A stretch of DNA of 39,731 nucleotides. Origin: an uncultured Muribaculaceae bacterium. Its GTDB lineage: Bacteria > Bacillota_I > Bacilli_A > RF39 > UBA660. The notes under the pieces were generated by a model. The model saw only the letters and a list, made by a program, of their open reading frames with translations. It did no database searches and was not told the origin of the DNA. The position numbers and the translations under genes are program-made. Numbering within the stretch: the stretch's first letter is position 1; each line of letters opens with the position of its first letter. The stretch covers positions 1 through 39,731 of the forward strand of contig CAYOUK010000001.1 of NCBI GenBank assembly GCA_964407175.1, given 5' to 3'. Positions 1-39,253 of the stretch are shown here, piece after piece.

Positions 1-357
1 AGAATCACTCATACTTTCTGGGCTATCGTTTTACCATGTATATTAATGATATTAGATATTATTACAGGTTATTACAACGCATGGGAAAAAAACGAAGTAT
101 CAAGCAAAAAGATGAGAGATGGTTTAGGCAAAAAACTTGCAGAGCTTATATATATAGTAATAGGTATGTTAATCTCATGTGCCTTTGGTGTTAAAGGTAT
201 AGGGTTCTTCATATCAGGTTATGTAGTATATATGGAGCTTGTAAGCATTGCTGAAAATTGCAAAAAGTTAGGTGTTGAATTACCTAAAGAAGTAGCAGAC
301 AAATTAAATAATGATATAGAAAAGGATGATGGAAATGATATCAATAGAGGTGAATAG
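1..357 (+). CDS. holin (TcdE / phage_holin_4-like), 5'-truncated by the window edge
   Basis: In-frame continuation of the ORF seen complete at 32328..32705. It has three hydrophobic helices and a charged C-terminal tail. One substitution at base 4 gives I instead of F. Confidence 0.75.
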   Translation, partial: RITHTFWAIVLPCILMILDIITGYYNAWEKNEVSSKKMRDGLGKKLAELIYIVIGMLISCAFGVKGIGFFISGYVVYMELVSIAENCKKLGVELPKEVADKLNNDIEKDDGNDINRGE

Positions 358-694
358 GGGTAGTGCTATTACATTGGTTATTAGTGCAACTGTAGGGGAT
401 GAAAATTATACTTTTCAACCTGGAGACGTAGTCAGACTTTCTATAACTGAAAGAAAAAACGAAAACAAAGTGGTTTTAAGAAAAGATGTAGAGGTGAATG
501 AGGAAACTGAAGAGGTAGAAATGCCTTTATTATCAAGCGACACTAAAATTGGAGACATTATAAACAAAGAAGTAGTTTATTGGTTTGAGGTAGAACTTAA
601 CCCAGATACAGAACAATGTCAAACTATTATTGGTTATGATGCAGATGGTGCTAAAGAGTTTATTTTATACCCTGAAAGTGGTGTATCGAATTGA
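335..694 (+). CDS. hypothetical protein (acidic, beta-rich; tail-fibre cluster)
   Basis: The ORF track gives 326..694. ATG 335 has better spacing to AAGGA at 321-325. The stop overlaps the next start (TTGA). No motif recognised. Confidence 0.6.
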   Translation: MISIEVNRGSAITLVISATVGDENYTFQPGDVVRLSITERKNENKVVLRKDVEVNEETEEVEMPLLSSDTKIGDIINKEVVYWFEVELNPDTEQCQTIIGYDADGAKEFILYPESGVSN

Positions 695-1293
695 CAGAAA
701 AAATTGAAATCATAGGTTTTATAAAAGACAAAAATAATATCAAGGGTGCATTGAGTAGTAACCTAAATTACAATAATCTCAAGATCACAAGTGCTTATTA
801 TTTATTTAGAAGTAATGCTAGAAGCGATTCTATGAATGATATTATAGCTTGTTTTAAAGATATAACTAACTGCGACCATGCATTTGAATATAATGACGTG
901 GTTGATGCACCTTTATTTGATACAAGTTCATGCACTACTTTTAATAGTATGTTTAATGGGGCAAGTCATTTAAAATCATTGCCAGAATATGATATGTCTA
1001 ACGCAAAAGATGTGTCAAATTTTTGTAATGCGTGTTATCAATTAGAAAGTGTTCCTGCTTATAATTGGGGAAGTATAACGGACATGAATTGGTACAATTC
1101 TTTTACTGGATGCTCAGCATTAAGTGATGAAAGTCTTAATAATATAATGAAGTCTTTTAGTACTATGTCAAATATAGCAAGCAGTCAAAAAAGATTAATG
1201 TATGCAGGTTTGAGCGAAACTCAAGCAAACAGATGCACAGAATTGCCAAATTGGAGCATTTTAGAAAGCGATGGATGGCGAACAGGTTATTAG
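691..1293 (+). CDS. DUF285 / BspA-like leucine-rich-repeat protein
   Basis: TTG start coupled to the upstream stop. It has repeated units of about 26 aa of the MF-x-gC-x-L type (FNSMFNGASHLKSLPEYDMSNAKDVSNFCNACYQLESVP...SFTGCSALS). Confidence 0.6.
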   Translation: MTEKIEIIGFIKDKNNIKGALSSNLNYNNLKITSAYYLFRSNARSDSMNDIIACFKDITNCDHAFEYNDVVDAPLFDTSSCTTFNSMFNGASHLKSLPEYDMSNAKDVSNFCNACYQLESVPAYNWGSITDMNWYNSFTGCSALSDESLNNIMKSFSTMSNIASSQKRLMYAGLSETQANRCTELPNWSILESDGWRTGY

Positions 1294-1304
1294 AGGTGGT
1301 TTAG

Positions 1305-1589
1305 ATGATTAAAAAGAGAACAAAAATAGTCGGTCATATTAGTGGCGCAGTCGGGCCGAAAGGCGAAAATGGTTTTAGTCCTATAATTACCACCTCTGAA
1401 ACTCAAGATGGTTATAAAATAACTATTACTGATATAGAAGATACTGAAGAAATAGAACTATTCAATGGAAAAGTTAATCATGAAGATTTGAATAATCTAG
1501 ACTTTGAAAGTTCAGGACATACAGGTTTTCAAGAAGAAATGACACCTCTAACAAATTGGGAAATAGAAAGGATGTTTGAAAATGAGTAG
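1305..1589 (+). CDS. hypothetical protein with a short collagen-like G-x-x stretch (GAVGPKGENG)
   Basis: Strong RBS (GAGGTGG). Lies in the fibre cluster. A short Gly-X-Y run is typical of fibre N-termini. Confidence 0.55.
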   Translation: MIKKRTKIVGHISGAVGPKGENGFSPIITTSETQDGYKITITDIEDTEEIELFNGKVNHEDLNNLDFESSGHTGFQEEMTPLTNWEIERMFENE

Positions 1590-2061
1590 TATTAAATATA
1601 CTGATGATAATGGTCTATTATATCTTATTCAAAAGATTAAGACATTATTAGGCAACAAAGTAGATAAAGAAACAGGAAAAGGGCTTTCAACTAATGATTA
1701 TACTAATGCAGATAAAACAATAGTTACAGGAATAGATGGCAGAGTTACAACTCTAGAAAATGCAGGTTATCAAACTGCAGGAGACGTTCAAACACTTATT
1801 AATTCTAGTCTAGCATCAGTTATGACATATAAAGGCACGGTTGCAAATTATAGTGATCTACCTAGTTCTAATGTGGCAGTAGGTGATACTTATAACATAA
1901 CAAATGCTAGTCAGTATAACAATGCAGGAGATAACGCAACGTGGAATGGTACATCTTGGGATGTTTTAGGAAGCAATATAGATTTATCTAGTTATTTACA
2001 AGATAGTGATTTGGTGGCAATTACAAACGCAGAAATAGATACAATGTGGAATGGAAATTAG
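1582..2061 (+). CDS. tail-fibre-like protein
   Basis: The track ORF starts at TTG 1576; ATG 1582 is preferred. It carries the GKGLSTNDYT motif and a C-terminal GDTYNI...WNGTSWDVLG motif, both common in Firmicute phage fibre proteins. Confidence 0.6.
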   Translation: MSSIKYTDDNGLLYLIQKIKTLLGNKVDKETGKGLSTNDYTNADKTIVTGIDGRVTTLENAGYQTAGDVQTLINSSLASVMTYKGTVANYSDLPSSNVAVGDTYNITNASQYNNAGDNATWNGTSWDVLGSNIDLSSYLQDSDLVAITNAEIDTMWNGN

Positions 2062-2070
2062 GTGGTTTAA

Positions 2071-3204
2071 ATGAAATATTTAAACGGCACAGGAACGGAA
2101 CATCTAATTGATAAGATTAAAGATGATTTAGAGCTAAAGTATGATAAGACAGGTGGAGAAATATCAGGCAACGTCAAGATAGATGGAACACTAACACTAG
2201 ACATAGAAGATGAAGATTATGATAGTGGAATCACTTTTGATAAATCTTTAGACACTAATGTTGGAACAATATTATCTTTGAATGGTTATGCTAATAGTTC
2301 AGAGACTACTAATTATAGACCAATAATAAGAAATGTTGGAACACCAAATCAAAATTATGATGTAGCAAACAAAAAGTATGTAGATGATAATGTTATAGTT
2401 CCTAATTATTATCTAACATTATTAAATGCAGATGGCACGATAGATACAACATCTTCAACATTAAACTATAATACTGTGATTTCTAACTTAACAAATAGAA
2501 GTAAAGCTGATTACTTGGACATTATATGGGGAACAACTAGATTTTATGCAAAATGTATTGAAGTAACGGATGTAAACACAGGAGATTTAAAGTTTATAGG
2601 TGAAGTAGAATATCAAGGAATACAAAGATATATGGTGTTTACTTTAACACCTAACAACGTATTGACTACTACTAATATCATAACTTTTGAGACAATAAGC
2701 GATAAGGTTCAGAGTGTAGTTGCAAATAGTACAAGCCAAGCAAAATACCCTAGCGCAAAAGCAGTCTTTGATGAATTTCAAAGAAAACCAGTAGTTGTAT
2801 GGGAAAGCAGTACGCCAAGCGAATATTTAAAAGGAATACAAGCAAATATGTCAGCAAGCCCAGCATGGCAACTAACAGATTTAGATTTGACACCATTTAA
2901 AAGGATTAAAATCTATACTTGTGCTGGTAAGGGTTCAACCAATGCCAGTACAACGCCAGCAATAATTTTGGAAATGTCTTTAGATAGTAGAGCAGTATCA
3001 ACTGCATGGGGGAATAACTATGTTGCGTCTACTGTTATACAAAAATCAAATGACAACAACAGACTTGCGACATTAACATGTGCTGTATCAGCAGACAAGA
3101 CAAGTTTTGTTGTATTATGGCAAACAAGCCTTTATGGTACTGCTGCAACTTCAAACAACGATGTAAACGCAAACGTATTTATGATAGAGGGTTATTATGA
3201 TTAG
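2071..3204 (+). CDS. tail fibre / receptor-binding protein
   Basis: 377 aa with a strong RBS. The N-terminal VANKKYVDD fibre-anchor motif is followed by an S/T/N-rich beta region. Confidence 0.6.
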   Translation: MKYLNGTGTEHLIDKIKDDLELKYDKTGGEISGNVKIDGTLTLDIEDEDYDSGITFDKSLDTNVGTILSLNGYANSSETTNYRPIIRNVGTPNQNYDVANKKYVDDNVIVPNYYLTLLNADGTIDTTSSTLNYNTVISNLTNRSKADYLDIIWGTTRFYAKCIEVTDVNTGDLKFIGEVEYQGIQRYMVFTLTPNNVLTTTNIITFETISDKVQSVVANSTSQAKYPSAKAVFDEFQRKPVVVWESSTPSEYLKGIQANMSASPAWQLTDLDLTPFKRIKIYTCAGKGSTNASTTPAIILEMSLDSRAVSTAWGNNYVASTVIQKSNDNNRLATLTCAVSADKTSFVVLWQTSLYGTAATSNNDVNANVFMIEGYYD

Positions 3205-3213
3205 GAGGTATTT

Positions 3214-3849
3214 ATGTTAAGTATTAGAGAAAGACAAACATATTTAAAATATTTAGGGCTTTATAAAGATGATAAAGGCAATGACGCTAAAATAGATGGC
3301 ATTGAGGGGCGTTTTACTAAAAGAGGTTATAAGTTAATACAAGATAAGTATTTTACAAGAAAATCAAATGGTAAATATATCGATAGAGATGGCAAATATG
3401 GCAGGAATACTGATATGCTTTTAGTTAATGCCTATAATGTTAAGAAATATACAAAGAATTTTAGTTTGAGTGAGTTCAAATGTGGATGTAACACAAAATA
3501 TTGCACGGGTTACCCTGCATATTTGAATATCAACCTTTTAAGGAATTTACAAACTATGAGAAATAACTATGGTGCTATCACTATTACAAGCCCATTAAGA
3601 TGTAGTAAACATAATGCTAATATCGGTGGTGTAGCAGGTTCATATCATACAAAAGGAAAAGCACTAGACTTATATAATGTTAGATTTAGTTCTAGTTTCA
3701 CAAACAGGAAATATGCTATCGAAAAATGGTTATTATTACCAAAAGCAAATATGGCATATCAAAATGGTTATATGCATTATAAGGGAAAGAGTGTAACTGG
3801 TTATAATGCTCCTAAAATGGGTAATGTTATACACGTACAGGTAGATTAA
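3214..3849 (+). CDS. endolysin: PG_binding_1-like N-terminus plus peptidase M15A (zinc D-Ala-D-Ala carboxypeptidase-like) domain
   Basis: RERQTYLKYLGLY...IDGIEG resembles a peptidoglycan-binding domain. FSLSEFKC...GSYHTKGKALDL...HVQVD fits the H-x6-D...H metal site of M15A. Confidence 0.8.
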   Translation: MLSIRERQTYLKYLGLYKDDKGNDAKIDGIEGRFTKRGYKLIQDKYFTRKSNGKYIDRDGKYGRNTDMLLVNAYNVKKYTKNFSLSEFKCGCNTKYCTGYPAYLNINLLRNLQTMRNNYGAITITSPLRCSKHNANIGGVAGSYHTKGKALDLYNVRFSSSFTNRKYAIEKWLLLPKANMAYQNGYMHYKGKSVTGYNAPKMGNVIHVQVD

Positions 3850-4253
3850 TGGATCAAACCACCAAAGAATTAATATTCATCTATAAACCAAAAGGTATAG
3901 ACTGGATGAATTTCAAAATAACAAAAGAAAACCCTATGACATATCACCAGATAGAAAAAAGAGAACACGGTGGCAAAAAGACAGTAGATAATGGGGCGAT
4001 TCTAACTAGGAATAGTCATCAGTATTTACATCTTATTGAAAGCAAAGAAGATAAGTTATATTTTGCTATTAATCAGTTATTAAAATTAATCAATAAACAA
4101 AAAACTGCTCCAACACAGGAGCAAAGAGAAATGATGGACTTTTTATTAGATGAATTCTTTAAAGCCCACGAGCACGATAAGAACGCAAAAGGTAAGCCTT
4201 TAATAAAAGATAAGTATATTTTAAGAGGCGAACCATTGACAATGAGATATTAA
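3849..4253 (+). CDS. HNH-like protein (Cys-less H-N-H pattern)
   Basis: YHQIEKREHGGKKTVDNGAILTRNSHQYLH fits H..GG..N..L..H...H spacing. The start overlaps the endolysin stop (TAATG). Confidence 0.4.
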   Translation: MDQTTKELIFIYKPKGIDWMNFKITKENPMTYHQIEKREHGGKKTVDNGAILTRNSHQYLHLIESKEDKLYFAINQLLKLINKQKTAPTQEQREMMDFLLDEFFKAHEHDKNAKGKPLIKDKYILRGEPLTMRY

Positions 4254-4270
4254 TTTGCTATACTTTATAT

Positions 4271-4306
4271 GGTGTGAAAATTCAATGTTTTTCTCATTTT
4301 TACACC
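4271..4306 (+). terminator. hairpin downstream of the HNH-like gene
   Basis: ggtgtgaaaat / atttttacacc forms an 11-bp stem with one G-U pair, followed by a T-rich tract. Confidence 0.4.
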
Positions 4307-4347
4307 TAGTATTTTTCTAATATTTTTTTAGAAAACAAAATAACTCG

Positions 4348-4374
4348 TAGATGCCTATAAGGCATCTATTTTTT
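4348..4374. terminator. bidirectional rho-independent terminator between convergent genes
   Basis: tagatgcc-tataa-ggcatcta is an 8-bp stem with TTTTTT downstream on the + strand and a T-rich tract on the - strand. It overlaps the stop of the minus-strand HNH gene. Confidence 0.6.
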
Positions 4375-4683
4375 GTATCTTTGATTTTCTATAGACCATC
4401 CAGGGTATTTGCTTTTCATATAACCCGTGATTATCTCGAGTATTTCATCATGCTCTTTTTTAGTTCCAAAATCAAAACGCCTATGACACTTTAAAGGACT
4501 TAATTCAGTGCATAGAGTTACAATGTTAGTTTCTATGCCTAGACCACCATGAGCCCTTGATAGAATATGAGCGTTAGGCATTGCTTGGTAACTACCACAT
4601 ACCACACACCTATGTTTATCTCTTTCCCATACTTTACTTTTAACACTTTCAGATATGTCAAGTGCATTAGTTCTATTTGACAT
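4366..4683 (-). CDS. HNH endonuclease (small, stand-alone)
   Basis: CVVCGS...NAHILSRAHGGLGIETNIVTLC...CHRRFD is a classic CxxC / H-N-H / C..H zinc-finger nuclease motif. It has a GGAGG RBS and a possible own promoter (TTCACA-17-TAGTAT, 4742..4714). Confidence 0.75.
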   Translation of the reverse strand: MSNRTNALDISESVKSKVWERDKHRCVVCGSYQAMPNAHILSRAHGGLGIETNIVTLCTELSPLKCHRRFDFGTKKEHDEILEIITGYMKSKYPGWSIENQRYKK

Positions 4684-4907
4684 TTTCTATACCTCCAATT
4701 TTATACAATGGTTATACTATGATATTTTGATAATTATGTGAATTATTTGAATAGAATACTAGGAATTTACTAGCATATAAACTTATGATAATAAAAATAA
4801 AATACCGTACGGGTCACCAAATTGTATTCTAGAAGCCTTTATTTTAGGGGCTTCTTTAATTTTATACAATGATTTATACAATGAGATGACAACTCAAAAG
4901 AAAATTT
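4684..4907. other. attP-like / prophage junction region
   Basis: Non-coding tract next to int. It holds three exact TTATACAATG copies (4701, 4862, 4874), the palindrome CCGTACGG (4805..4812) and a hairpin agaagcc/ggcttct (4831..4855). Confidence 0.5.
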
Positions 4908-6032
4908 TTAATAAAAATCATCAGTAATGTTTGACACTTTTTTTCTAGAGTTAGTTGACACATTGCCATACACATCAATAGTAGTAGATATTTTAGAGTG
5001 CCCCATTGATTTCTCTAACACATACATATCAATGCCCTGTTCCATCATTAGAGTAGCAAAGGTGTGTCTTAAATCATACATTCTTATTTTTGGTACTCCT
5101 GCAAGTTCAATATAATGGTTGAAATGTTTTCTTAATGATACATCACTTATTTGTTTACCAGTTGATACACTTAACAATAAAGGTGTATCTTTTTTTATTT
5201 GGACGCCTATATTATTAGTTAAGAATTTTTTATATTCAAAAATCTCATTTAGGTATTTATCAGTTACAAATATATCTCTTTGTGCCATGGTGTTTTTTGA
5301 ATTGCCTTTTAATCGGTTCAAAGATGTGTCATATTCAATAGAATTTCTAATAGTGATGATTTTCTTGTTAAAGTCTATGTCGTTGAATGTGAGGGCTCGT
5401 AGTTCCCCTAGACGACATCCGAGTGATAACATTGATATAGTTAGTATCTTTATAAGTCTTGCTGATGGATCATTCAAGTTATTATTGAGCGTTTTAATGA
5501 ATCTATTTATATCATCTTGTAACCAATAATTAAGAATAGGTTTAGTGGTTTTTTCTTTAGTTATATAAAGAGCAGGTGATATGTCTAGATATTCATTTTT
5601 ACAACACCACGTGAAAAAGGCTTTTAACATCTTTAAAAGTTCGTTTTTTTCTTTAGTGGTTCTATTAATCGAGTTAAAAAATAAGATTAAGTCATTTTTA
5701 GATATTTGATTAATCTTATATTTTGAAAGTCTATGATATTCTATATTATAAAACATTTTCTTTTTCTTTAGAGTGTTATATGCCATTTTGTAAACGTGTT
5801 CGCACTCGTAAAGGTATTTATTATATAATTCTTCAAAAGATATATTAGATTTGTTTAATTGCTTGTTTGTGTAGCTATCTCTAACTTTTAAAGCAATATC
5901 AATAGAATATATCTTGTCGCCATTAAAACGTGATATGGTGCTATTAATCTTTGATATAGTGATTATATAATTCTTGTTTTTCTCGTGTTTATAGATATTC
6001 TGATAACGTGTTTTTTTGTAGTATTTTTCCAT
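4908..6032 (-). CDS. int: tyrosine recombinase / phage integrase
   Basis: 374 aa. The catalytic context is LGCRLGELRAL, YDLRHTFATLMM, MGHSKISTTIDVY. It sits at the prophage end beside the repressor. Confidence 0.9.
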   Translation of the reverse strand: MEKYYKKTRYQNIYKHEKNKNYIITISKINSTISRFNGDKIYSIDIALKVRDSYTNKQLNKSNISFEELYNKYLYECEHVYKMAYNTLKKKKMFYNIEYHRLSKYKINQISKNDLILFFNSINRTTKEKNELLKMLKAFFTWCCKNEYLDISPALYITKEKTTKPILNYWLQDDINRFIKTLNNNLNDPSARLIKILTISMLSLGCRLGELRALTFNDIDFNKKIITIRNSIEYDTSLNRLKGNSKNTMAQRDIFVTDKYLNEIFEYKKFLTNNIGVQIKKDTPLLLSVSTGKQISDVSLRKHFNHYIELAGVPKIRMYDLRHTFATLMMEQGIDMYVLEKSMGHSKISTTIDVYGNVSTNSRKKVSNITDDFY

Positions 6033-6059
6033 GGTGTTTTTCTCTTTTCTATTTTTTGA

Positions 6060-6299
6060 TTATTTTTGATATTTTTCCATTTGAGATATATCTTTTGTAA
6101 TAATATCATCCATAGAAATGTTTAAAAAGTTGCATATCAAATAAACATCTTTTACTATTGGTTGTCTTTCGCCTGTTTTCCATCTTTGAACTAGTGTTCT
6201 GTCTTTTTTTATCAAAGCACATAATGTTTTAATAGAGATCCTTTTTGTATTGATTAACCACTCTATATTTTTGGCAAATATTTTTTCATCATAATTCAT
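6060..6299 (-). CDS. XRE-family HTH repressor (CI-like, no peptidase domain)
   Basis: 79 aa with HTH ISIKTLCALIKKDRTLVQRWKTGERQP. It is transcribed divergently from the cro-like gene. Confidence 0.7.
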   Translation of the reverse strand: MNYDEKIFAKNIEWLINTKRISIKTLCALIKKDRTLVQRWKTGERQPIVKDVYLICNFLNISMDDIITKDISQMEKYQK

Positions 6300-6327
6300 T
6301 TATAAAACTCCTTTTTTTAACCCATAA

Positions 6328-6433
6328 GTTGTATTGTGATTTAATTATACAACACATTTTTTTGTAAAGCAAACACCAAAAATGTAAAAATAATATAAAA
6401 ATTGTTGACTTTAAGTCACAGACGTGATAATAT
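6328..6433. promoter_or_regulatory. divergent switch promoters with operator-like repeats
   Basis: Minus strand: TTGCTT (6372..6367), 17-nt spacer, TATAAT (6349..6344). Plus strand: TTGACT (6405..6410), 17-nt spacer, TG-n-TAATAT (6428..6433). The inverted repeat GTTGTAT/ATACAAC (6328..6353) overlaps the leftward -10. AAGTCACAGA (6413..6422) lies in the rightward spacer. Confidence 0.6.
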
Positions 6434-6457
6434 TAAATTACAAGAAGGGAGGAAGCT

Positions 6458-6664
6458 ATGGACAATCTAACAGTTTCAAGAAACATCAAAGCACAAAGAA
6501 TCATCAGAGGCTTATATCAATTAGATGTAGCAAAAATGTTAGGAATTAGCAAACAAACGTATATAAGAATAGAAACAAAGCCTTTTGAAATGCCAGTATG
6601 GAAATTAAAAAGGGTCGCAGATGTGTTAGGATGTAAATTAGATGACTTTTTTGTAGTACATTAA
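6458..6664 (+). CDS. Cro-like XRE-family HTH protein
   Basis: 68 aa with HTH LYQLDVAKMLGISKQTYIRIE and a strong RBS. It is the first rightward gene. Confidence 0.7.
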   Translation: MDNLTVSRNIKAQRIIRGLYQLDVAKMLGISKQTYIRIETKPFEMPVWKLKRVADVLGCKLDDFFVVH

Positions 6665-6729
6665 GTTCCTTATAGTCACATATTTTTTTGGAACGCGATG
6701 TGCCTAAAAGTCACAGAAAAGAGGTTTAA

Positions 6730-6903
6730 ATGTATAGCAAAGAAGATATATCAAACATACTAAATTGTAGTATTAGCAAAGCATACAACATCTTAAAAAA
6801 ATTACAAGAGATGTTAAAACAGGAACAACCTGAAATATTAATAATCAGAGGTAGAATACCGAAGAGTTATTTTGAAAAAAAAGTATTAGGAAAAGAGGTG
6901 TAA
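6730..6903 (+). CDS. small HTH protein, excisionase / DUF3173-like
   Basis: 57 aa and not in the ORF track. RBS is AGAGG. ISNILNCSISKAYNILKKL...RGRIPKSYFEKKVLG resembles Xis-like proteins of Firmicute mobile elements. Confidence 0.45.
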   Translation: MYSKEDISNILNCSISKAYNILKKLQEMLKQEQPEILIIRGRIPKSYFEKKVLGKEV

Positions 6904-6905
6904 TA

Positions 6906-7064
6906 ATGAGAAAAGTATTGAATATTGGTTTACTAATTTATGCAGTATTAGCATTTGGAGCAATGTTTACAAGAGATGCAGGAATATTCAGTAATGTAAT
7001 GACTTGGATGGTTCAAGTAGGACTTGCTTTCAGTTTAAAAGAATTAGTACTTATGGAGGGTTAA
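6906..7064 (+). CDS. small membrane protein (52 aa)
   Basis: Not in the ORF track. RBS is AGAGGTG. It has two hydrophobic segments. The repeat identity block ends inside this gene at 6933. Confidence 0.5.
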   Translation: MRKVLNIGLLIYAVLAFGAMFTRDAGIFSNVMTWMVQVGLAFSLKELVLMEG

Positions 7065-13988: not shown

Positions 13989-14256
13989 AATTAATATTAA
14001 ATCTCAAAAAGAAGAGTTAAAAAGAATTAATAATCAGTTATCGTTATTAATGGCAAAGAAAAGAGCTATACAACATTTCTTAAAAAAAGAGGCAAGTGAT
14101 GAAGAAGCAGAGTTAAAAGAAAAGATAATAGCTTTAAGGGACGACAAAGAATTCATAGAAAAAAATGGTAGGTCAAGATACTATTGGGAAATAGGAAACG
14201 AGGTCGGCTACTCGGAAACTACCATTAAAAGAATATTCAAAAGTATCAAAAAATGA
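13981..14256 (+). CDS. putative late-gene transcriptional regulator (sigma-70 region-4-like / DUF1492-like HTH)
   Basis: C-terminal IGNEVGYSETTIKRIFKSI resembles a region-4 HTH. It is the last gene of the early operon and is followed by a strong terminator. Confidence 0.4.
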   Translation: MDEINIKSQKEELKRINNQLSLLMAKKRAIQHFLKKEASDEEAELKEKIIALRDDKEFIEKNGRSRYYWEIGNEVGYSETTIKRIFKSIKK

Positions 14257-14297
14257 GGTATCAATGACACCTGAAAGTTGGTACCTCGACTTTTTTT
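14255..14297 (+). terminator. rho-independent terminator (hairpin motif copy A)
   Basis: gaggtatcaa / ttggtacctc is a 10-bp stem with one G-U pair and a 13-nt loop, followed by a T7 run at 14291..14297. Confidence 0.7.
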
Positions 14298-14807: not shown

Positions 14808-15107
14808 ATGCATCAGTTATATGATTTTTATTGTGCTAGGTATGAAAATATGAGATATGAAGAATTCCTGAATCTAGGTTATGAAGAGTTCAGTATAAAG
14901 TTAGAAAGCATACCTGAAAATGAGCCATTATATCCAATTATTAAGTCTAGGAGCATTAATCTAGCAAAGATAAAAGACAAAGAAGAAAGAAAATACTGGC
15001 GAGAGCTTAAAAGGATCAATGCTATTCCTGACATATACATATCAAACGAAGAACTAGACCAAAGATTAAAAGATAATTTAAGAAGCAATGTAGGAGGTAT
15101 TATATGA
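14808..15107 (+). CDS. hypothetical protein; possibly expressed as a +1 frameshift extension of the upstream ORF
   Basis: ATG 14808 has no recognisable SD. Its frame is open from 14727 and overlaps the end of the upstream ORF. Confidence 0.45.
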   Translation: MHQLYDFYCARYENMRYEEFLNLGYEEFSIKLESIPENEPLYPIIKSRSINLAKIKDKEERKYWRELKRINAIPDIYISNEELDQRLKDNLRSNVGGII

Positions 15108-15547
15108 AAATAAATTTTGAAAACGACTTATTAGAGTTTATGAAGAATGTAACAATAGAAGACAAAGAATTTTCTAGTTATGAGGATGTAAAAGGGAATT
15201 ATTTTGAAATGAATACAGGAGCATTAATATGCAGATGTGATGCTTTCGAGATACCTAAAGAAAGACCAAGCGAAAAAGTGTCTAGCGAGTATGAGGTTGC
15301 AGTTTTTAGTAAGGCGATAGAAGATTTACCTTATAACACAAAAACAATTAAAAAAGCAGTCCCTAAAAGCGAAATAACAGGTAAAGAAAAAGACATGACT
15401 GTATTAACTGAAAAAGCAGTAGAGGTTGCTCTTGTATATGTAGTAAGTAACCCTTATAAAGTACAAAAATGCTTTGTAGATAAAAACGAGGCATTAAAGA
15501 CTGCAAAAGACATAAACGCAAAAATAAAGAAGATATGTAGAAGTTAA
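15104..15547 (+). CDS. hypothetical protein
   Basis: RBS AGGAGG, ATGA overlap with the upstream gene, 147 aa. Confidence 0.6.
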   Translation: MKINFENDLLEFMKNVTIEDKEFSSYEDVKGNYFEMNTGALICRCDAFEIPKERPSEKVSSEYEVAVFSKAIEDLPYNTKTIKKAVPKSEITGKEKDMTVLTEKAVEVALVYVVSNPYKVQKCFVDKNEALKTAKDINAKIKKICRS

Positions 15548-15551
15548 AACC

Positions 15552-15734
15552 GTGCCCGTATCTCTTATATACGTTTTACTCCTTAACGTATAAAAATAAT
15601 TAAGTTGCTAATACAAATAATCATTTTCATTCTGACAATAAAGATATGTTATCAAGGTTCACTAATTTTGACATAAATAATTACTTTTTTCATAGTAAAC
15701 ACCAATATACTATTAATCTTAAAGATACGGGCAC
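15552..15734 (+). repeat. 183-nt non-coding element bounded by a perfect 12-bp inverted repeat
   Basis: GTGCCCGTATCT (15552..15563) pairs with AGATACGGGCAC (15723..15734). An internal hairpin tatacgtt/aacgtata (15568..15592) has a CUCCU-containing loop. Confidence 0.7.
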
Positions 15735-15759
15735 AAAAATATTATAGGAGGTATATATC

Positions 15760-15834
15760 ATGGAATATATAGCAATTACGTTAATTGTATGTTTAACTTT
15801 AATCGCTCTTGCGATGATAGGAAAAAGCGAGTAA
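15760..15834 (+). CDS. 24-aa hydrophobic micro-ORF (MEYIAITLIVCLTLIALAMIGKSE)
   Basis: Not in the ORF track. Strong RBS AGGAGG with 9-nt spacing. It has a single predicted transmembrane segment and a charged tail, and ends 11 nt before the GT4 start. Confidence 0.45.
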   Translation: MEYIAITLIVCLTLIALAMIGKSE

Positions 15835-15845
15835 AAAGAGGGCAT

Positions 15846-16898
15846 ATGATAGAACATGCAAATATATTTTATTGTAAAGACATAAGTGAAATTGGTGGAG
15901 TTGAAACGTGGATATATGAGTTAGTCAAAAAATTTAAAGATTACGACATAGCAGTTGTATATAAAACAGGAAACATAAAACAACTACGAAGAATCAGGAA
16001 ATACTGCAAGACATATAAACACGACAAACAAATGATTAATTGTAAAGTGGCATTAATTAATTATGATACATCAATAATTGATTATATATGTGAAGAGGCA
16101 AAAATATATCAGGGAATTCATGCAGATTATGAAAACCCAGCATATACAATAAAACCTCCGACACATCCAAGAATAACAAGTTATATAGCGATAACAAAAT
16201 ACATCGAAGAAAGTTTTAAAAGAATAACAGGCAAGCAGAATGTTATTCAACTATATAACCCATTATCTATCGAAAAAAGAAAACCATTAGTATTAATAAG
16301 TGCAACAAGATTATCAAGAGTAAAAGGTAAAGAACGCATGGAAAAGTTAGGTCAAGCTCTCAACAAAGCAAAAATTGACTATATATGGTACGTGTTTACA
16401 AACGACAAAAAAGAGATAGATAATGAAAATATAATATACACGACACCTAGAATAGATTTAGGGTATTGGTTTGATCATGCAGATTATTTAGTACAATTAT
16501 CAGATACCGAGGGACTTTCTTATAGCATTAATGAGATGTTATACAGAAACAAGCCTGTAATAGTAACACCATTACCTTATTTGGATGAAATAGGTGTAAA
16601 AGACAATGTTAATGCTTACATCATGGAATTTGATTGTAGCAACATAGATGACATTGTTAAAAAGATTAAAAAAATACCAAAGTTTGAATTTAAGAAACTA
16701 AAAGACAACTATGAAAAACTCATATACAAAAGCAAAAGTCATTATGAAGAGGACTTAAAACAAATAGTAAAAATAAGGAGCAAACGCTCTTATAAGGACA
16801 TAGAACTAGGAAAACATTTGCCTAGAGGTCATGAATGGAGCGTATATGAAGAAAGAGCACAAGAGTTACTCGAAAAGAATTTAGTAGAAATAATATAA
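15846..16898 (+). CDS. glycosyltransferase, GT-B fold (GT4-like)
   Basis: N-terminal EIGGVETW and the E-x7-E motif SDTEGLSYSINEML. The track ORF starts at 15789 but overlaps the micro-ORF, so ATG 15846 is preferred. Confidence 0.75.
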   Translation: MIEHANIFYCKDISEIGGVETWIYELVKKFKDYDIAVVYKTGNIKQLRRIRKYCKTYKHDKQMINCKVALINYDTSIIDYICEEAKIYQGIHADYENPAYTIKPPTHPRITSYIAITKYIEESFKRITGKQNVIQLYNPLSIEKRKPLVLISATRLSRVKGKERMEKLGQALNKAKIDYIWYVFTNDKKEIDNENIIYTTPRIDLGYWFDHADYLVQLSDTEGLSYSINEMLYRNKPVIVTPLPYLDEIGVKDNVNAYIMEFDCSNIDDIVKKIKKIPKFEFKKLKDNYEKLIYKSKSHYEEDLKQIVKIRSKRSYKDIELGKHLPRGHEWSVYEERAQELLEKNLVEII

Positions 16899-16983
16899 AA
16901 ACAAGGGTCGCAAATAGAGGGAACGAGCGAACGTCTTATAAGGTCGTTGGAGGGTTGGCATGGCGTTTAAAAAAGGAGCAATT

Positions 16984-17589
16984 ATGATACCTAAAAAGAT
17001 TCATTATGTATGGTTAGGGCATGGCGAAAAAAGCGATAAAATAAAGCGTTGTATCGAAAGCTGGAAAAAATATATGCCAGATTATGAAATAGTAGAGTGG
17101 AATGAAGAAAACTTCGATATTAATTACAATGATTTTACTAGAGAAAGTTACAACAACAAAAAATATGCTTTTACTTCTGATGTTATAAGATTATATGCGT
17201 TATATACCGAGGGTGGAATTTATATGGATACTGATGTAGAAGTGTATAAGAGTTTAGATCCATTCTTAAATGAAGAGGCTTTTACTGGATTTGAAGATGT
17301 ACATTATCCAGTTACAGCAACATTAGGAGCTGAAAAAGGTAACCCAGTTATAAAAATGATGTTAGATTATTATAATTGCATAGACTTTAAAATGTATGAT
17401 GTATGGACTGATTATATTAAGTATCAAGAAACTAATACTTGCATAATGTCTAATATCTTAGAACTATTAGGAATAGATAGAGATAAAAATGAAGAACAAC
17501 ATATAAAACATTTTAGTGTATACCCTAGAAGTTATTTCTTTACAAAAGATGAGGGTTATACATGGCATAGTTTTACGGGAAGTTGGTAA
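16984..17589 (+). CDS. glycosyltransferase, GT32-like (DXD sugar-binding region)
   Basis: IPKKIHYVWLG...YAFTSDVIRLYALYTEGGIYMDTDVEV matches the Gly_transf_sug/Och1/TcdB-type motif. ATG 16984 follows AAGGAG, whereas the track start is 16960. Confidence 0.75.
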   Translation: MIPKKIHYVWLGHGEKSDKIKRCIESWKKYMPDYEIVEWNEENFDINYNDFTRESYNNKKYAFTSDVIRLYALYTEGGIYMDTDVEVYKSLDPFLNEEAFTGFEDVHYPVTATLGAEKGNPVIKMMLDYYNCIDFKMYDVWTDYIKYQETNTCIMSNILELLGIDRDKNEEQHIKHFSVYPRSYFFTKDEGYTWHSFTGSW

Positions 17590-19567: not shown

Positions 19568-19833
19568 TTATTAAATGCAAAAAGACACATAGGTTCTTAT
19601 GTAAGATTAACATCGAAGAGTATCTTAAAAATCTTGAGGGCTTGGGAATAAGTCAGGAACTACCTTTAATGTTATCTATACCATGTAAGAATTGTAAGAA
19701 GATAGAAGTATATGAGGTATACAAAGACCATTATATATTCAAAGAAAATGAGGTGCCAAAAATGAAGTGTCATGACACCTCAAAAGTTGGTACTTCAAAT
19801 ATTCCAAAAAGTATTATAATTAAGAGGAATTGA
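19564..19833 (+). CDS. hypothetical Cys-rich (zinc-ribbon-like) protein
   Basis: C5, C13 ... C41-x2-C44 pattern. Lies between TerL and portal. Hairpin motif copy B lies in its 3' end. Confidence 0.5.
   Translation: MIIKCKKTHRFLCKINIEEYLKNLEGLGISQELPLMLSIPCKNCKKIEVYEVYKDHYIFKENEVPKMKCHDTSKVGTSNIPKSIIIKRN
19764..19796 (+). other. hairpin motif copy B (homologous to the terminator hairpin at 14255..14287)
   Basis: gaagtgtca / tggtacttc stem. About 34 of 40 aligned positions match copy A, including one compensatory G-C to A-T pair change. Confidence 0.55.
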
Positions 19834-32327: not shown

Positions 32328-32705
32328 ATGGAAGTTTTAGAAGAACTAAGATTCACTCATACTTTCTGGGCTATCGTTTTACCATGTATATTAATGATAT
32401 TAGATATTATTACAGGTTATTACAACGCATGGGAAAAAAACGAAGTATCAAGCAAAAAGATGAGAGATGGTTTAGGCAAAAAACTTGCAGAGCTTATATA
32501 TATAGTAATAGGTATGTTAATCTCATGTGCCTTTGGTGTTAAAGGTATAGGGTTCTTCATATCAGGTTATGTAGTATATATGGAGCTTGTAAGCATTGCT
32601 GAAAATTGCAAAAAGTTAGGTGTTGAATTACCTAAAGAAGTAGCAGACAAATTAAATAATGATATAGAAAAGGATGATGGAAATGATATCAATAGAGGTG
32701 AATAG
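32328..32705 (+). CDS. holin (TcdE / phage_holin_4-like), complete copy
   Basis: 125 aa with three transmembrane helices and a charged C-terminus. RBS AGAGGG. Confidence 0.75.
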   Translation: MEVLEELRFTHTFWAIVLPCILMILDIITGYYNAWEKNEVSSKKMRDGLGKKLAELIYIVIGMLISCAFGVKGIGFFISGYVVYMELVSIAENCKKLGVELPKEVADKLNNDIEKDDGNDINRGE

Positions 32706-33042
32706 GGGTAGTGCTATTACATTGGTTATTAGTGCAACTGTAGGGGATGAAAATTATACTTTTCAACCTGGAGACGTAGTCAGACTTTCTATAACTGAAA
32801 GAAAAAACGAAAACAAAGTGGTTTTAAGAAAAGATGTAGAGGTGAATGAGGAAACTGAAGAGGTAGAAATGCCTTTATTATCAAGCGACACTAAAATTGG
32901 AGACATTATAAACAAAGAAGTAGTTTATTGGTTTGAGGTAGAACTTAACCCAGATACAGAACAATGTCAAACTATTATTGGTTATGATGCAGATGGTGCT
33001 AAAGAGTTTATTTTATACCCTGAAAGTGGTGTATCGAATTGA
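32683..33042 (+). CDS. hypothetical protein (copy of 335..694)
   Basis: Identical translation, offset 32,348. Confidence 0.6.
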   Translation: MISIEVNRGSAITLVISATVGDENYTFQPGDVVRLSITERKNENKVVLRKDVEVNEETEEVEMPLLSSDTKIGDIINKEVVYWFEVELNPDTEQCQTIIGYDADGAKEFILYPESGVSN

Positions 33043-33641
33043 CAGAAAAAATTGAAATCATAGGTTTTATAAAAGACAAAAATAATATCAAGGGTGCATT
33101 GAGTAGTAACCTAAATTACAATAATCTCAAGATCACAAGTGCTTATTATTTATTTAGAAGTAATGCTAGAAGCGATTCTATGAATGATATTATAGCTTGT
33201 TTTAAAGATATAACTAACTGCGACCATGCATTTGAATATAATGACGTGGTTGATGCACCTTTATTTGATACAAGTTCATGCACTACTTTTAATAGTATGT
33301 TTAATGGGGCAAGTCATTTAAAATCATTGCCAGAATATGATATGTCTAACGCAAAAGATGTGTCAAATTTTTGTAATGCGTGTTATCAATTAGAAAGTGT
33401 TCCTGCTTATAATTGGGGAAGTATAACGGACATGAATTGGTACAATTCTTTTACTGGATGCTCAGCATTAAGTGATGAAAGTCTTAATAATATAATGAAG
33501 TCTTTTAGTACTATGTCAAATATAGCAAGCAGTCAAAAAAGATTAATGTATGCAGGTTTGAGCGAAACTCAAGCAAACAGATGCACAGAATTGCCAAATT
33601 GGAGCATTTTAGAAAGCGATGGATGGCGAACAGGTTATTAG
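33039..33641 (+). CDS. DUF285 / BspA-like LRR protein (copy of 691..1293)
   Basis: Identical translation, offset 32,348. Confidence 0.6.
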   Translation: MTEKIEIIGFIKDKNNIKGALSSNLNYNNLKITSAYYLFRSNARSDSMNDIIACFKDITNCDHAFEYNDVVDAPLFDTSSCTTFNSMFNGASHLKSLPEYDMSNAKDVSNFCNACYQLESVPAYNWGSITDMNWYNSFTGCSALSDESLNNIMKSFSTMSNIASSQKRLMYAGLSETQANRCTELPNWSILESDGWRTGY

Positions 33642-33652
33642 AGGTGGTTTAG

Positions 33653-33937
33653 ATGATTAAAAAGAGAACAAAAATAGTCGGTCATATTAGTGGCGCAGTC
33701 GGGCCGAAAGGCGAAAATGGTTTTAGTCCTATAATTACCACCTCTGAAACTCAAGATGGTTATAAAATAACTATTACTGATATAGAAGATACTGAAGAAA
33801 TAGAACTATTCAATGGAAAAGTTAATCATGAAGATTTGAATAATCTAGACTTTGAAAGTTCAGGACATACAGGTTTTCAAGAAGAAATGACACCTCTAAC
33901 AAATTGGGAAATAGAAAGGATGTTTGAAAATGAGTAG
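33653..33937 (+). CDS. hypothetical protein with collagen-like stretch (copy of 1305..1589)
   Basis: Identical translation, offset 32,348. Confidence 0.55.
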   Translation: MIKKRTKIVGHISGAVGPKGENGFSPIITTSETQDGYKITITDIEDTEEIELFNGKVNHEDLNNLDFESSGHTGFQEEMTPLTNWEIERMFENE

Positions 33938-34409
33938 TATTAAATATACTGATGATAATGGTCTATTATATCTTATTCAAAAGATTAAGACATTATTAGG
34001 CAACAAAGTAGATAAAGAAACAGGAAAAGGGCTTTCAACTAATGATTATACTAATGCAGATAAAACAATAGTTACAGGAATAGATGGCAGAGTTACAACT
34101 CTAGAAAATGCAGGTTATCAAACTGCAGGAGACGTTCAAACACTTATTAATTCTAGTCTAGCATCAGTTATGACATATAAAGGCACGGTTGCAAATTATA
34201 GTGATCTACCTAGTTCTAATGTGGCAGTAGGTGATACTTATAACATAACAAATGCTAGTCAGTATAACAATGCAGGAGATAACGCAACGTGGAATGGTAC
34301 ATCTTGGGATGTTTTAGGAAGCAATATAGATTTATCTAGTTATTTACAAGATAGTGATTTGGTGGCAATTACAAACGCAGAAATAGATACAATGTGGAAT
34401 GGAAATTAG
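33930..34409 (+). CDS. tail-fibre-like protein (copy of 1582..2061)
   Basis: Identical translation, offset 32,348. Confidence 0.6.
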   Translation: MSSIKYTDDNGLLYLIQKIKTLLGNKVDKETGKGLSTNDYTNADKTIVTGIDGRVTTLENAGYQTAGDVQTLINSSLASVMTYKGTVANYSDLPSSNVAVGDTYNITNASQYNNAGDNATWNGTSWDVLGSNIDLSSYLQDSDLVAITNAEIDTMWNGN

Positions 34410-34418
34410 GTGGTTTAA

Positions 34419-35552: not shown

Positions 35553-35561
35553 GAGGTATTT

Positions 35562-36601: not shown

Positions 36602-36695
36602 TTTGCTATACTTTATATGGTGTGAAAATTCAATGTTTTTCTCATTTTTACACCTAGTATTTTTCTAATATTTTTTTAGAAAACAAAATAACTCG

Positions 36696-36722
36696 TAGAT
36701 GCCTATAAGGCATCTATTTTTT
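36696..36722. terminator. bidirectional terminator (copy of 4348..4374)
   Basis: Same hairpin tagatgcc/ggcatcta with T runs. Confidence 0.6.
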
Positions 36723-38380: not shown

Positions 38381-38407
38381 GGTGTTTTTCTCTTTTCTAT
38401 TTTTTGA

Positions 38408-38647: not shown

Positions 38648-38675
38648 TTATAAAACTCCTTTTTTTAACCCATAA

Positions 38676-39251: not shown

Positions 39252-39253
39252 TA

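What the first reader, a model, noticed from the sequence alone, without database searches (positions are those of the whole stretch)
15552..15734. 183-nt non-coding element closed by a perfect 12-bp GC-rich inverted repeat
GTGCCCGTATCT (15552..15563) and AGATACGGGCAC (15723..15734) are exact reverse complements. They are 58% G+C in a very AT-rich context and enclose 159 nt with no ORF. The element sits in the largest non-coding gap of the late region (15548..15759). Inside are a hairpin tatacgtt/aacgtata (15568..15592) and a possible promoter, TTGACA-17-CATAGT (15668..15696). The element ends 12 nt before the SD of a hydrophobic micro-ORF. It could be a structured RNA (long closing stem), a paired protein-binding site, a packaging or recombination site, or a MITE-like insertion. 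I do not recognise it as any known RNA family.
Basis: seen in the sequence. Interest (0 to 1): 0.6.

Follow-up and report, generated by a model that had tools for sequence, protein, structure and literature searches.

The report
Conserved RNA helix in phage operon
The 12-bp GC-rich inverted repeat is real and is kept complementary by compensating mutations in related uncultured gut/rumen phages, so it most likely forms a long-range RNA stem in the phage messenger RNA that loops out the spacer in front of a tiny membrane-protein gene and two sugar-transferase genes; this is an ordinary kind of regulatory RNA structure, but one not catalogued before.

Summary
GTGCCCGTATCT (15552-15563) and AGATACGGGCAC (15723-15734) are exact reverse complements. 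A GC-rich 12-bp inverted repeat within 300 nt never arose in 200 shuffles of the 32-kb phage genome. Thirty assemblies (20 haplotypes, three lineages; the upstream protein falls to 58% identity) carry the element at the same place. The arms differ between lineages but stay complementary: three pairs show compensatory double changes, and one pair runs A-U, G.U, G-C. Over 20 haplotypes the stem has 226 Watson-Crick, 12 G.U and 0 A.C cells, so pairing is selected on the + (coding-sense) strand, which points to RNA. The interior is variable (106-167 nt) and has no conserved fold except a 5' hairpin. The TTGACA promoter box is not conserved. The interior was never found inverted. The element is single-copy, lacks a U-tract and matches no Rfam family. 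The helix starts 4-7 nt after the upstream stop codon and ends 10-13 nt before the Shine-Dalgarno of a conserved 24-27-aa membrane micro-ORF. Best reading: a cis-acting long-range helix in the polycistronic mRNA that loops out the spacer and sets the translation and stability context of the micro-ORF/glycosyltransferase cassette. Inverton, MITE, terminator and DNA-looping readings are rejected or unlikely. No RNA or read data could be examined.

The parts
15104..15547 (+). Upstream gene 'p147' (147 aa, no known family). Its stop codon lies 4 nt before the left arm.
   Evidence: Homologues anchor the element in 30 assemblies.
15552..15563 (+). 5' arm of the long-range helix (GTGCCCGTATCT)
   Evidence: Covariation. 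Position 9 (15560) is polymorphic A/G, giving A-U or G.U.
15568..15592 (+). 8-bp hairpin with loop UUACUCCUU (15576-15584) containing an anti-SD-like CUCCU. It is kept in the window and L110 lineages and absent in L113.
   Evidence: I10. A-T to T-A compensatory change in the L110 type, three G.U changes in L023, and a loop identical in window and L023 types (the L110 types keep ACTCCTT with a loop 1 nt shorter; L139 has a 1-nt insertion).
15593..15722 (+). Variable AU-rich interior that the helix loops out. It has no conserved fold. Conserved blocks are AAGATAT and CTTTTTTCAT.
   Evidence: interior length 106-167 nt between lineages, with indels of 1, 4, 13 and 18 nt.
15668..15696 (+). Sigma-70-like promoter TTGACA-17-CATAGT, specific to the window lineage. 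Function not shown.
   Evidence: 10/12. Not conserved.
15723..15734 (+). 3' arm of the long-range helix (AGATACGGGCAC)
   Evidence: Arm duplex dG -21.2 kcal/mol, and P(helix) about 1 in transcripts of 200-780 nt.
15735..15751 (+). A-rich single-stranded linker (AAAAATATTAT) plus Shine-Dalgarno AGGAGG (15746-15751). This is also the recombination breakpoint between element types and micro-ORF alleles.
   Evidence: (SD mostly unpaired).
15760..15834 (+). Micro-ORF, 24 aa, MEYIAITLIVCLTLIALAMIGKSE: a conserved small membrane protein and the first gene after the helix.
   Evidence: Two alleles exist (24 aa and 27 aa). Between window and L113 there are 4 synonymous and 2 non-synonymous codon changes.
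15846..17589 (+). GT1-family (15846-16898) and DXD-motif (16960-17589) glycosyltransferase genes, the cargo whose expression the leader would govern.

Best explanation
The two arms are the strands of a long-range RNA helix. The helix forms in the + strand polycistronic transcript that runs from the upstream genes (p138-p99-p147) into the micro-ORF, the glycosyltransferase genes and the terminase genes. It begins 4-7 nt after the p147 stop codon and ends 10-13 nt before the micro-ORF's Shine-Dalgarno. It therefore loops out the 106-167-nt AU-rich spacer. That leaves the ribosome-binding site in a fixed context (stable helix, A-rich single-stranded platform, AGGAGG) right next to the upstream stop codon. 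It acts in cis on expression of the micro-ORF/GT cassette. It shields and compacts an otherwise long untranslated AU-rich stretch. It insulates the RBS from upstream sequence. It places ribosomes that terminate on p147 beside the next start, which would give translational coupling across more than 200 nt. Ribosomes reaching the p147 stop must melt the outer half of the helix, so helix state would follow upstream translation. Shown here: the helix is conserved by covariation, selection acts on the + strand, its position relative to the stop codon and SD is fixed, and it is thermodynamically dominant. Inferred: that the region is transcribed through (all genes are co-oriented and no terminator is predicted), and every functional consequence.
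For: (1) Statistical: a GC-rich 12-bp inverted repeat arose in 0 of 200 shuffles. (2) Conservation: 30 assemblies, 20 haplotypes and three lineages carry it at the same junction, with p147 identity falling to 58%. (3) Covariation: window GTGCCCGTATCT/AGATACGGGCAC, L110 type GTGCCTGTGCTC/GGGTACAGGCAC, L113 type TTGCGCCCGTGT/ACACGGGCGCAA. On the 6-sequence alignment, three of the 11 closing-stem pairs counted have double compensatory changes and 98.5% of the helix cells pair. Sliding the partners leaves only 21-51% of all structure cells paired, and the covariation score was reached by 0 of 500 shuffles. RNAalifold recovers the helix independently. (4) Strand: 226 Watson-Crick, 12 G.U and 0 A.C cells in the stem. 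All five single-sided transitions in the stems give G.U on the + strand. The L110-type helix is predicted on the + strand (P 0.89) and not on the - strand (P 0.00). (5) Geometry is constant: the offset from the stop is 4, 6 or 7 nt and the linker to GGAGG is 10-13 nt, while the interior varies from 106 to 167 nt. (6) Stability: arm duplex -20.4 to -22.7 kcal/mol, and P(helix) about 1 for the window in 200-780-nt contexts. (7) No + strand terminator is predicted between 14000 and 18300, and all genes are co-oriented. (8) Sister phages have unrelated stems at the same junction whose 3' arm also ends 13-20 nt before the next start codon, and the long ones among them (arms of 19-32 nt) show 16 G.U against 1 A.C on the + strand. 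(9) Precedent: a conserved stem at the T4 gene 25 translation initiation region and RNA-structure control at T4 initiation regions (PMC3014915).
Against: The helix does not include the SD or AUG, so a direct effect on initiation is not evident from sequence. The SD is already mostly unpaired in predicted folds of the window. Covariation rests on three lineages, which amounts to four arm haplotypes. Compensatory change alone would also arise from homogenisation of DNA repeats. In the L110 type the predicted helix is lost in a 765-nt context, although long-range thermodynamic prediction is unreliable. If the window-lineage internal promoter is active, its transcripts lack the 5' arm and do not need the helix.
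Confidence: 0.55

Rival explanations
1. Processing and stability site. The helix, or the AU-rich loop it presents, is cut by host RNase III or RNase Y. This separates upstream and downstream mRNA segments. The arm duplex then protects the new 3' and 5' ends, acting as a 5' stabiliser for the cargo mRNA, as with RNase III sites in T7 and SP82 early RNAs (own knowledge).
For: The same + strand helix evidence applies. The host lineage encodes RNase III in 16 of 16 genomes. Sister phages carry stems of 24-32 bp at the same place, long enough for RNase III. The interior is AU-rich and unstructured.
Against: The window's helix has only 12 perfect bp (16 of 19 with mismatches), which is short for RNase III. 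No cleavage data exist. This reading overlaps with the best explanation rather than excluding it.
Confidence: 0.18
2. Transcript-specific translational gate, like T4 genes e, soc and I-TevI. Read-through transcripts carry anti-SD sequences (UCUCU at 15561-15565 and the CUCCU hairpin loop) that silence the micro-ORF's RBS. Transcripts from the internal promoter lack them and are translated.
For: GUAUCUCUUAUA (15558-15569) can pair with the SD region 15743-15754 at -13 kcal/mol. The L110 type has CUCC at the inner end of its 5' arm, and L113 has UCUCCUUU just before its 3' arm. The ACTCCTT core of the hairpin loop is the same in all 19 haplotypes that carry the hairpin. The window lineage has TTGACA-17-CATAGT inside the loop. 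T4 precedent: PMC3014915.
Against: The closing helix (-21 kcal/mol) outcompetes the anti-SD pairing, and the SD is predicted to be mostly free. The promoter is not conserved. The loop-SD pairing is only 5 bp and would be a pseudoknot, which I could not evaluate.
Confidence: 0.1
3. Trans-acting or stand-alone small RNA. The helix-closed segment is excised from the operon transcript and its CU-rich loop targets SD regions of other phage or host mRNAs.
For: There is a stable closing helix, an anti-SD-like hairpin loop whose ACTCCTT core is unchanged in 19 haplotypes, and + strand selection.
Against: The element has no promoter or terminator of its own. The interior is poorly conserved and the hairpin is missing in L113. 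There is no Rfam match.
Confidence: 0.06
4. Invertible promoter (inverton). A site-specific recombinase flips the repeat-bounded 159-bp segment and switches the glycosyltransferase cassette on and off.
For: The anatomy fits: a 12-19-bp inverted repeat flanks about 160 bp with a promoter-like site pointing at glycosyltransferase genes. Repeat homogenisation could mimic covariation.
Against: No assembly shows the interior inverted: all 24 window-type and 3 L110-type assemblies score higher forward, and the 6 L113-type interiors, too diverged to score, keep the conserved block in the same direction. All arm mismatches are G.T on one strand and none is A.C. The promoter is not conserved. The only recombinase is the phage integrase about 10 kb away. 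A sister phage has only a 50-nt spacer between its arms.
Confidence: 0.04
5. DNA-level site: paired binding sites for a regulator (DNA looping), a packaging or replication signal, or a hairpin in + strand single-stranded DNA.
For: The arms are GC-rich islands with a conserved core GCC(C/T)GT, at the boundary before the packaging genes. G.T tolerance would also fit a single-stranded DNA hairpin.
Against: Arm spacing is 118, 153, 166-171 and about 180 bp with no helical phasing. Four to five of 12 arm positions change between lineages. The element lies 2 kb upstream of terS. No function needing single-stranded DNA is known for such a phage.
Confidence: 0.04
6. Relic without function: the terminal repeats of a dead MITE or insertion, or a decayed gene.
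For: The interior is variable and unrecognisable.
Against: The element is single-copy in the host MAG and absent from 60 relatives and from the public collections. There is no target-site duplication. Compensatory changes show selection on pairing. Six-frame translation is full of stops and has no homologous hits.
Confidence: 0.03

Closest known systems
Conserved stem at the T4 gene 25 translation initiation region (PMC3014915); gene 38 is similar from my own knowledge
   Same: An RNA helix excludes an intervening stretch so that translation signals that are far apart in sequence come close together. It is conserved across related phages and acts in cis.
   Different: In T4 the looped-out stretch is about 20-30 nt between the SD and the AUG. 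Here 106-167 nt between an upstream stop codon and the next SD are looped out, and no effect on translation has been shown.
T4 e / soc / 49 / I-TevI inhibitory leaders (PMC3014915)
   Same: A phage intercistronic leader whose 5' half is present only in read-through transcripts, and (in the window lineage) a promoter-like site inside the structure.
   Different: In T4 the SD or AUG lies inside the helix. Here the helix ends 10-13 nt upstream of the SD, the SD is predicted to be free, and the internal promoter is not conserved.
Long-range pseudoknot of the E. coli IF3-L35-L20 operon (own knowledge: Chiaruttini, Milet and Springer 1996)
   Same: A helix between segments more than 100-250 nt apart in a polycistronic mRNA governs translation of a downstream cistron and its coupling to the upstream one.
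   Different: That structure is a binding site for repressor protein L20. No protein partner is indicated here.
RNase III processing sites of T7 and SP82 early mRNAs and Bacillus 5' stabilisers (own knowledge)
   Same: Intercistronic stems in phage polycistronic RNA placed just 5' of a ribosome-binding site.
   Different: Those stems are about 20 bp or longer with internal loops. The window helix has 12 bp and closes a large loop. The sister-phage stems of 24-32 bp fit this class better.
Invertible promoters (E. coli fimS, C. difficile cwpV and flgB switches, Bacteroides capsule promoters; own knowledge)
   Same: Short inverted repeats flank 150-300 bp upstream of surface or glycosylation genes.
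   Different: No orientation polymorphism, no conserved promoter, no dedicated invertase, and strand-asymmetric G.T mismatches.

Membership tests
Inverton (invertible promoter switch) | Inverted repeats flank a short DNA segment | tested here: met
   12 bp perfect, or 19 nt at 84%, flanking 159 or 145 bp.
Inverton (invertible promoter switch) | Both orientations occur in populations or assemblies | tested here: not met
   No assembly of 30 (20 haplotypes, many samples) shows the interior inverted. The 24 window-type assemblies score 227-318 forward against 17-25 reverse, and the 3 L110-type score 43-48 against 21. The 6 L113-type interiors are too diverged to score, but their conserved block lies the same way.
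Inverton (invertible promoter switch) | A promoter (or other directional signal) lies inside the segment and is conserved | tested here: not met
   TTGACA-17-CATAGT occurs only in the window lineage. It is lost in L128 and in the L110 and L113 types.
Inverton (invertible promoter switch) | A cognate invertase or recombinase is present | tested here: inconclusive
   Among the 20 window proteins scanned, the only recombinase is the tyrosine integrase at 4908-6032(-). The host genome was not screened.
Any Rfam family | Covariance-model match at or near the gathering score | tested here: not met
   Best hits had E values of 2.9 and 6.5, far below gathering scores. There were no hits in L014 or L023.
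Intrinsic terminator | A short GC-rich hairpin followed by a U-tract | tested here: not met
   No terminator-like site in 15000-16000 on either strand. The helix is followed by AAAAAUAUU on the + strand.
MITE / terminal-inverted-repeat element | Multiple copies and a target-site duplication | tested here: not met
   Single copy in the 977-kb MAG. Absent from 60 relatives and from the viral and metagenome collections. The flanks AAAACC and AAAAAT show no duplication.
T4 e / soc / I-TevI-type inhibitory leader | The SD or start codon is sequestered in the helix formed by read-through transcripts | tested here: not met
   The helix ends 11 nt before AGGAGG. P(paired) is about 0.17-0.2 for four of the five GGAGG bases in the window and 0.71 for the fourth. 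An alternative anti-SD pairing of -13 kcal/mol exists but is outcompeted.
RNase III processing site | About 20 bp or more of double-stranded RNA, and RNase III present in the host | tested here: inconclusive
   Host RNase III is present. The window helix has 12 bp, while sister-phage stems have 24-32 bp. Cleavage cannot be tested with these tools.
Type I toxin-antitoxin locus | A small hydrophobic toxin ORF with a structured 5' UTR and an overlapping antisense RNA gene | tested here: inconclusive
   The micro-ORF is conserved and hydrophobic. Only a weak - strand promoter-like site exists (15890-15861, 9/12), with no - strand terminator. Stem mismatches favour the + strand. The ORF is always in an operon with GT1. 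Toxicity was not tested.
Loop-out helix at a translation initiation region (T4 gene 25 type) | A helix excludes a spacer so that translation signals are juxtaposed, with geometry conserved while the spacer varies | tested here: met
   Offset from the stop 4-7 nt and linker to GGAGG 10-13 nt in all lineages, while the spacer varies from 106 to 167 nt. The effect on translation cannot be tested here.

The most novel reading that the evidence does not exclude
The helix is one of a set of unrelated but positionally equivalent 'cargo-adaptor' RNA modules in this phage family. Each is a stable + strand stem placed just 5' of the RBS of whatever accessory cassette sits between the p147 gene and the terminase genes. 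In the window lineage it also abuts the upstream stop codon. It would then work as a ribosome-sensing device that couples cargo translation to upstream translation across more than 200 nt. The conserved linker plus SD next to it serves as the recombination joint where cassettes and micro-ORF alleles are exchanged.
Probability: 0.15. Interest if true: 0.6.

Novelty: new member of a known kind. Interest (0 to 1): 0.35.

Why it matters
It adds an uncatalogued, covariation-supported cis-regulatory RNA helix to the small number known from uncultured gut and rumen phages. It marks how an accessory glycosyltransferase cassette and its small membrane-protein gene are joined to the phage's operon. It also gives a concrete, mutable target (arm and compensatory-arm mutants) for testing long-range translational coupling or mRNA stabilisation in a phage operon. 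It removes the more exciting reading, a phase-variable switch on phage glycosyltransferases. The recurrent stems at the same junction in sister phages suggest a general design rule for expressing phage accessory (moron) genes.

Tried and rejected
1. Rfam at a permissive E-value on the window, L014 and L023 found nothing.
2. blastn (distant mode) of 15300-16000 against 50,697 phage records found no match. Exact-pattern scans of the viral and metagenome collections found none. The genome collection gave one hit in a 65% GC Mycobacterium MAG. It is an unrelated 20-bp repeat picked up by my own pattern.
4. Inverton: the interior is never inverted in 30 assemblies.
5. MITE: the element is single-copy, and the near-match on contig C3 is coding.
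6. Conserved repeat upstream of GT1 homologues in 10 viral contigs: absent, and those loci also lack the micro-ORF and the gap.
7. Coding remnant: six-frame stops and no hits. The 33-aa ORF 15646-15747 is frameshifted in 8 haplotypes.
8. The conserved block CTTTTTTCAT as a phage promoter motif: window matches are mostly on the - strand inside genes (probably reverse complements of ATGAAAAAAG-type gene starts), so this is not informative.
9. attC-like folded recombination sites: the sister-phage hairpins do not recur between cargo genes.
10. A p147-based scan of metagenome contigs found no relatives.
11. - strand RNA: it had the better fold z-score in the window (-3.77 against -2.47). It is contradicted by the G.U/A.C asymmetry and by loss of the L110-type helix on the - strand.

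Full report
**Observation**

The repeat is exactly as described. GTGCCCGTATCT (15552-15563) and AGATACGGGCAC (15723-15734) are perfect reverse complements separated by 159 nt. With mismatches the repeat extends to 19 nt at 84% complementarity. The inner hairpin (15568-75 / 15585-92, loop TTACTCCTT) and the promoter-like TTGACA-17-CATAGT (15668-15696, 10/12) are also present.

One genome unit of the phage is 32,348 nt, because window 1-6932 repeats at 32349-39280. That unit holds only three perfect inverted repeats of 12 bp or more within 300 nt. This is the only GC-rich one. A repeat with 7 or more G/C arose in 0 of 200 Markov shuffles.

**Context**

All genes from about 7068 to 32304 lie on the + strand.

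- Upstream are three small genes, which I call p138, p99 and p147. The last one ends at 15547.
- Downstream are a 24-aa hydrophobic micro-ORF (15760-15834) with a strong AGGAGG, a GT1-family glycosyltransferase (15846-16898), a DXD-motif glycosyltransferase (16960-17589), a terS-like gene and terL.
- No + strand terminator is predicted between 14000 and 18300, so read-through transcription across the gap is expected. This is an inference.
- The phage has a tyrosine integrase and a Cro/CI-type repressor.
- The contig belongs to a 977-kb MAG that is about 82% complete.

**Relatives**

Nucleotide searches found nothing, so I anchored on the flanking proteins.

Exact and near matches to p147 gave 30 assemblies from many samples. 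They fall into three lineages:

- window type, including L023
- L110 type, with p147 at 82-84% identity
- L113 type, with p147 at 58% identity

All have the same order: p147, element, SD, micro-ORF, GT1.

A wider family of IMG/VR phages shares p138-p99-p147, then variable cargo, then terS-terL. In several of them the next gene follows p147 within 0-20 nt. In L014 the glycosyltransferase pair sits elsewhere, and the junction holds other small genes. The junction is thus a hotspot for accessory genes.

**The arms covary**

| Lineage | 5' arm | 3' arm |
|---|---|---|
| Window | GTGCCCGTATCT | AGATACGGGCAC |
| L110 type | GTGCCTGTGCTC | GGGTACAGGCAC |
| L113 type | TTGCGCCCGTGT | ACACGGGCGCAA |

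- In the formal count on six sequences, three pairs change on both sides and stay paired (T-A to C-G, C-G to T-A, T-A to C-G). A fourth double change (T-A to C-G at pair 12 in the L110 type) was read directly from the arms, because the alignment misplaces that pair.
- One pair runs A-U (window), G.U (L023 and L110) and G-C (L113).
- On the six-sequence alignment 98.5% of the helix cells pair, while sliding the partners leaves only 21-51% of all structure cells paired.
- The covariation score was reached by 0 of 500 shuffles.
- RNAalifold recovers the helix on its own from 6 and from 20 sequences.
- The small 5' hairpin also keeps pairing, through an A-T to T-A change in the L110 type and three G.U changes in L023.

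**RNA rather than DNA**

- Over 20 distinct haplotypes the closing stem has 226 Watson-Crick cells, 12 G.U cells on the + strand and no A.C cells.
- All five single-sided transitions seen in the two stems give G.U on the + strand. They would be A.C mismatches on the other strand.
- The L110-type helix is predicted with P 0.89 on the + strand and P 0.00 on the - strand.
- A double-stranded DNA site would show no such asymmetry.
- Arm spacing varies (118, 153, 166-171 and about 180 bp) without helical phasing, which argues against DNA looping.
- A hairpin in + strand single-stranded DNA cannot be formally excluded.

**What is and is not conserved inside**

- Only the closing helix and the 5' hairpin have support. 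The hairpin is absent in L113.
- The interior has no conserved fold. It varies from 106 to 167 nt and tolerates indels of 1, 4, 13 and 18 nt.
- The -35 TTGACA lies in an 18-nt stretch absent from the L110 type. It is TTGACG in five window-type haplotypes and destroyed in L128. No promoter-like site is called in the L110 or L113 elements.
- The 33-aa ORF inside the element is frameshifted in eight haplotypes.
- Six-frame translation gives only stop-ridden frames and no homologous hits.

**Not an inverton, MITE or terminator**

- The interior is never inverted. All 24 window-type assemblies score 227-318 forward against 17-25 reverse, and the 3 L110-type assemblies score 43-48 against 21. The 6 L113-type interiors are too diverged to score, but their conserved block lies in the same direction.
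- The element is single-copy in the MAG, and the one near-match lies inside a gene.
- There is no target-site duplication and no U-tract.
- Rfam has no match.

**Geometry and mechanism**

- In every lineage the helix starts 4-7 nt after the p147 stop codon.
- It ends 10-13 nt before GGAGG, followed by an A-rich single-stranded linker.
- The arm duplex is worth -20 to -23 kcal/mol. It dominates predicted ensembles of 200-780-nt transcripts of the window.
- The SD is predicted to be mostly free.

I therefore read the element as a cis-acting loop-out helix in the polycistronic mRNA. It compacts and shields a long AU-rich untranslated spacer and fixes the context of the micro-ORF's RBS. It brings that RBS next to the upstream stop codon. 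A ribosome reaching that stop must melt the outer half of the helix, so helix state should follow upstream translation. These functional steps are inferred, not shown.

Precedents are the conserved stem at the T4 gene 25 initiation region and the structure-controlled T4 genes e, soc, 49 and I-TevI (PMC3014915). The long-range pseudoknot of the E. coli IF3-L35-L20 operon is a further precedent (own knowledge).

Two variants remain open:

- Processing or stabilisation by RNase III or RNase Y. The host lineage has RNase III.
- A T4-e-like gate using the anti-SD-like sequences UCUCU (15561-65) and CUCCU (the hairpin loop). An alternative pairing of 15558-69 with the SD region is worth -13 kcal/mol.

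**Sister phages**

At the same junction, L030, L040, L043 (the same contig as L014), L044 and L046 carry unrelated long stems of 19-32 nt.

- Where such a stem lies directly before the next gene (L030b, L040, L043, L044b), its 3' arm ends 14-20 nt before that start codon.
- L030a, L030b, L040, L043 and L044b share the outer ends TTTAAT...ATTAAA and one G.G mismatch. Their upper stems are variable but complementary.
- Together the long stems show 16 G.U against 1 A.C on the + strand.
- They do not recur between cargo genes.

A stable + strand stem just 5' of the first cargo RBS therefore looks like a recurrent design in this phage family. This supports the general reading.

**Verdict**

The other options and the promoter are not.
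- It is a new member of a known kind, a cis-regulatory mRNA helix, and of moderate interest.
- Confidence that it is a selected + strand RNA helix acting in cis on the downstream cassette is about 0.55. Confidence in the specific coupling and insulation mechanism is lower.

Noticed in passing
L040:4812-4915, L043:4915-5052 (= L014:7057-7194), L044:2626-2794, L030:4709-4863 and 4974-5133, L046:4815-5416: Sister phages carry unrelated long stems (24-32 nt arms) at the same post-p147 junction. L030a, L030b, L040, L043 and L044b share the ends TTTAAT...ATTAAA and a conserved G.G mismatch, and their upper stems are variable but complementary. With L044a and L046 the stems show 16 G.U against 1 A.C on the + strand. 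L030b, L040, L043 and L044b end 14-20 nt before the next start codon. They look like an uncatalogued RNA hairpin family.
   Followed up: partly
window 15760-15834; L110:3630-3713; L113:3107-3181: The micro-ORF is a real gene. There are two alleles, MEYIAITLIVCLTLIALAMIGKSE (24 aa) and MGQNETIVVITIIICITLVALGYIGKN (27 aa). Window against L113 shows 4 synonymous and 2 non-synonymous codon changes. The alleles recombine freely with the element types, and the joint lies in the conserved AAAAATATTATAGGAGGT.
   Followed up: partly
L024 (ends at window position ~15761) and L026 (starts at ~15750), sample ERZ27297502: A MEGAHIT assembly breaks exactly where the two micro-ORF alleles diverge. This suggests both alleles co-occur in that sample.
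   Followed up: no
window 1-6932 versus 32349-39280: These stretches are identical except for one base, then diverge sharply after 6932/39280. The contig therefore wraps a genome of about 32.3 kb and joins two allelic early regions.
   Followed up: partly
L013, L014:3347-5056, L015: The glycosyltransferase pair occurs in the opposite order (DXD enzyme first) and at a different genome position, upstream of the p138-p147 genes. No micro-ORF or leader accompanies it. The pair behaves as a mobile cassette.
   Followed up: partly
L038:4740-4811: The hairpin AGTTGCCTCCTTTCT / AGAAAAGAGGAAACT pairs an anti-SD (CCUCC) directly with the SD of the next gene. It looks like a classic RBS-sequestering stem at the same junction in another relative.
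   Followed up: no
L014:6840-7056: About 220 nt of non-coding DNA with noticeably more G+C than its surroundings precedes the hairpin. It has no Rfam match and its function is unknown.
   Followed up: no
L025:3498-3666 (Mycobacterium sp. MAG JAVHWM010000175.1): A perfect 20-bp inverted repeat, GTGCCCGTATCTTAGCGACA / TGTCGCTAAGATACGGGCAC, flanks 129 nt and shares the window's 12-mer. It was selected by my own search pattern in a 65% GC genome and is almost certainly unrelated.
   Followed up: partly
L040:7361-7407, L043:7681-7729: Near-perfect 22-24-nt palindromes (AAAATAAGCACAGTATT...) lie a few hundred bases past the terL matches. They may correspond to the hairpin cassette that other notes place at window 14249-14287 and 19758-19796.
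   Followed up: no
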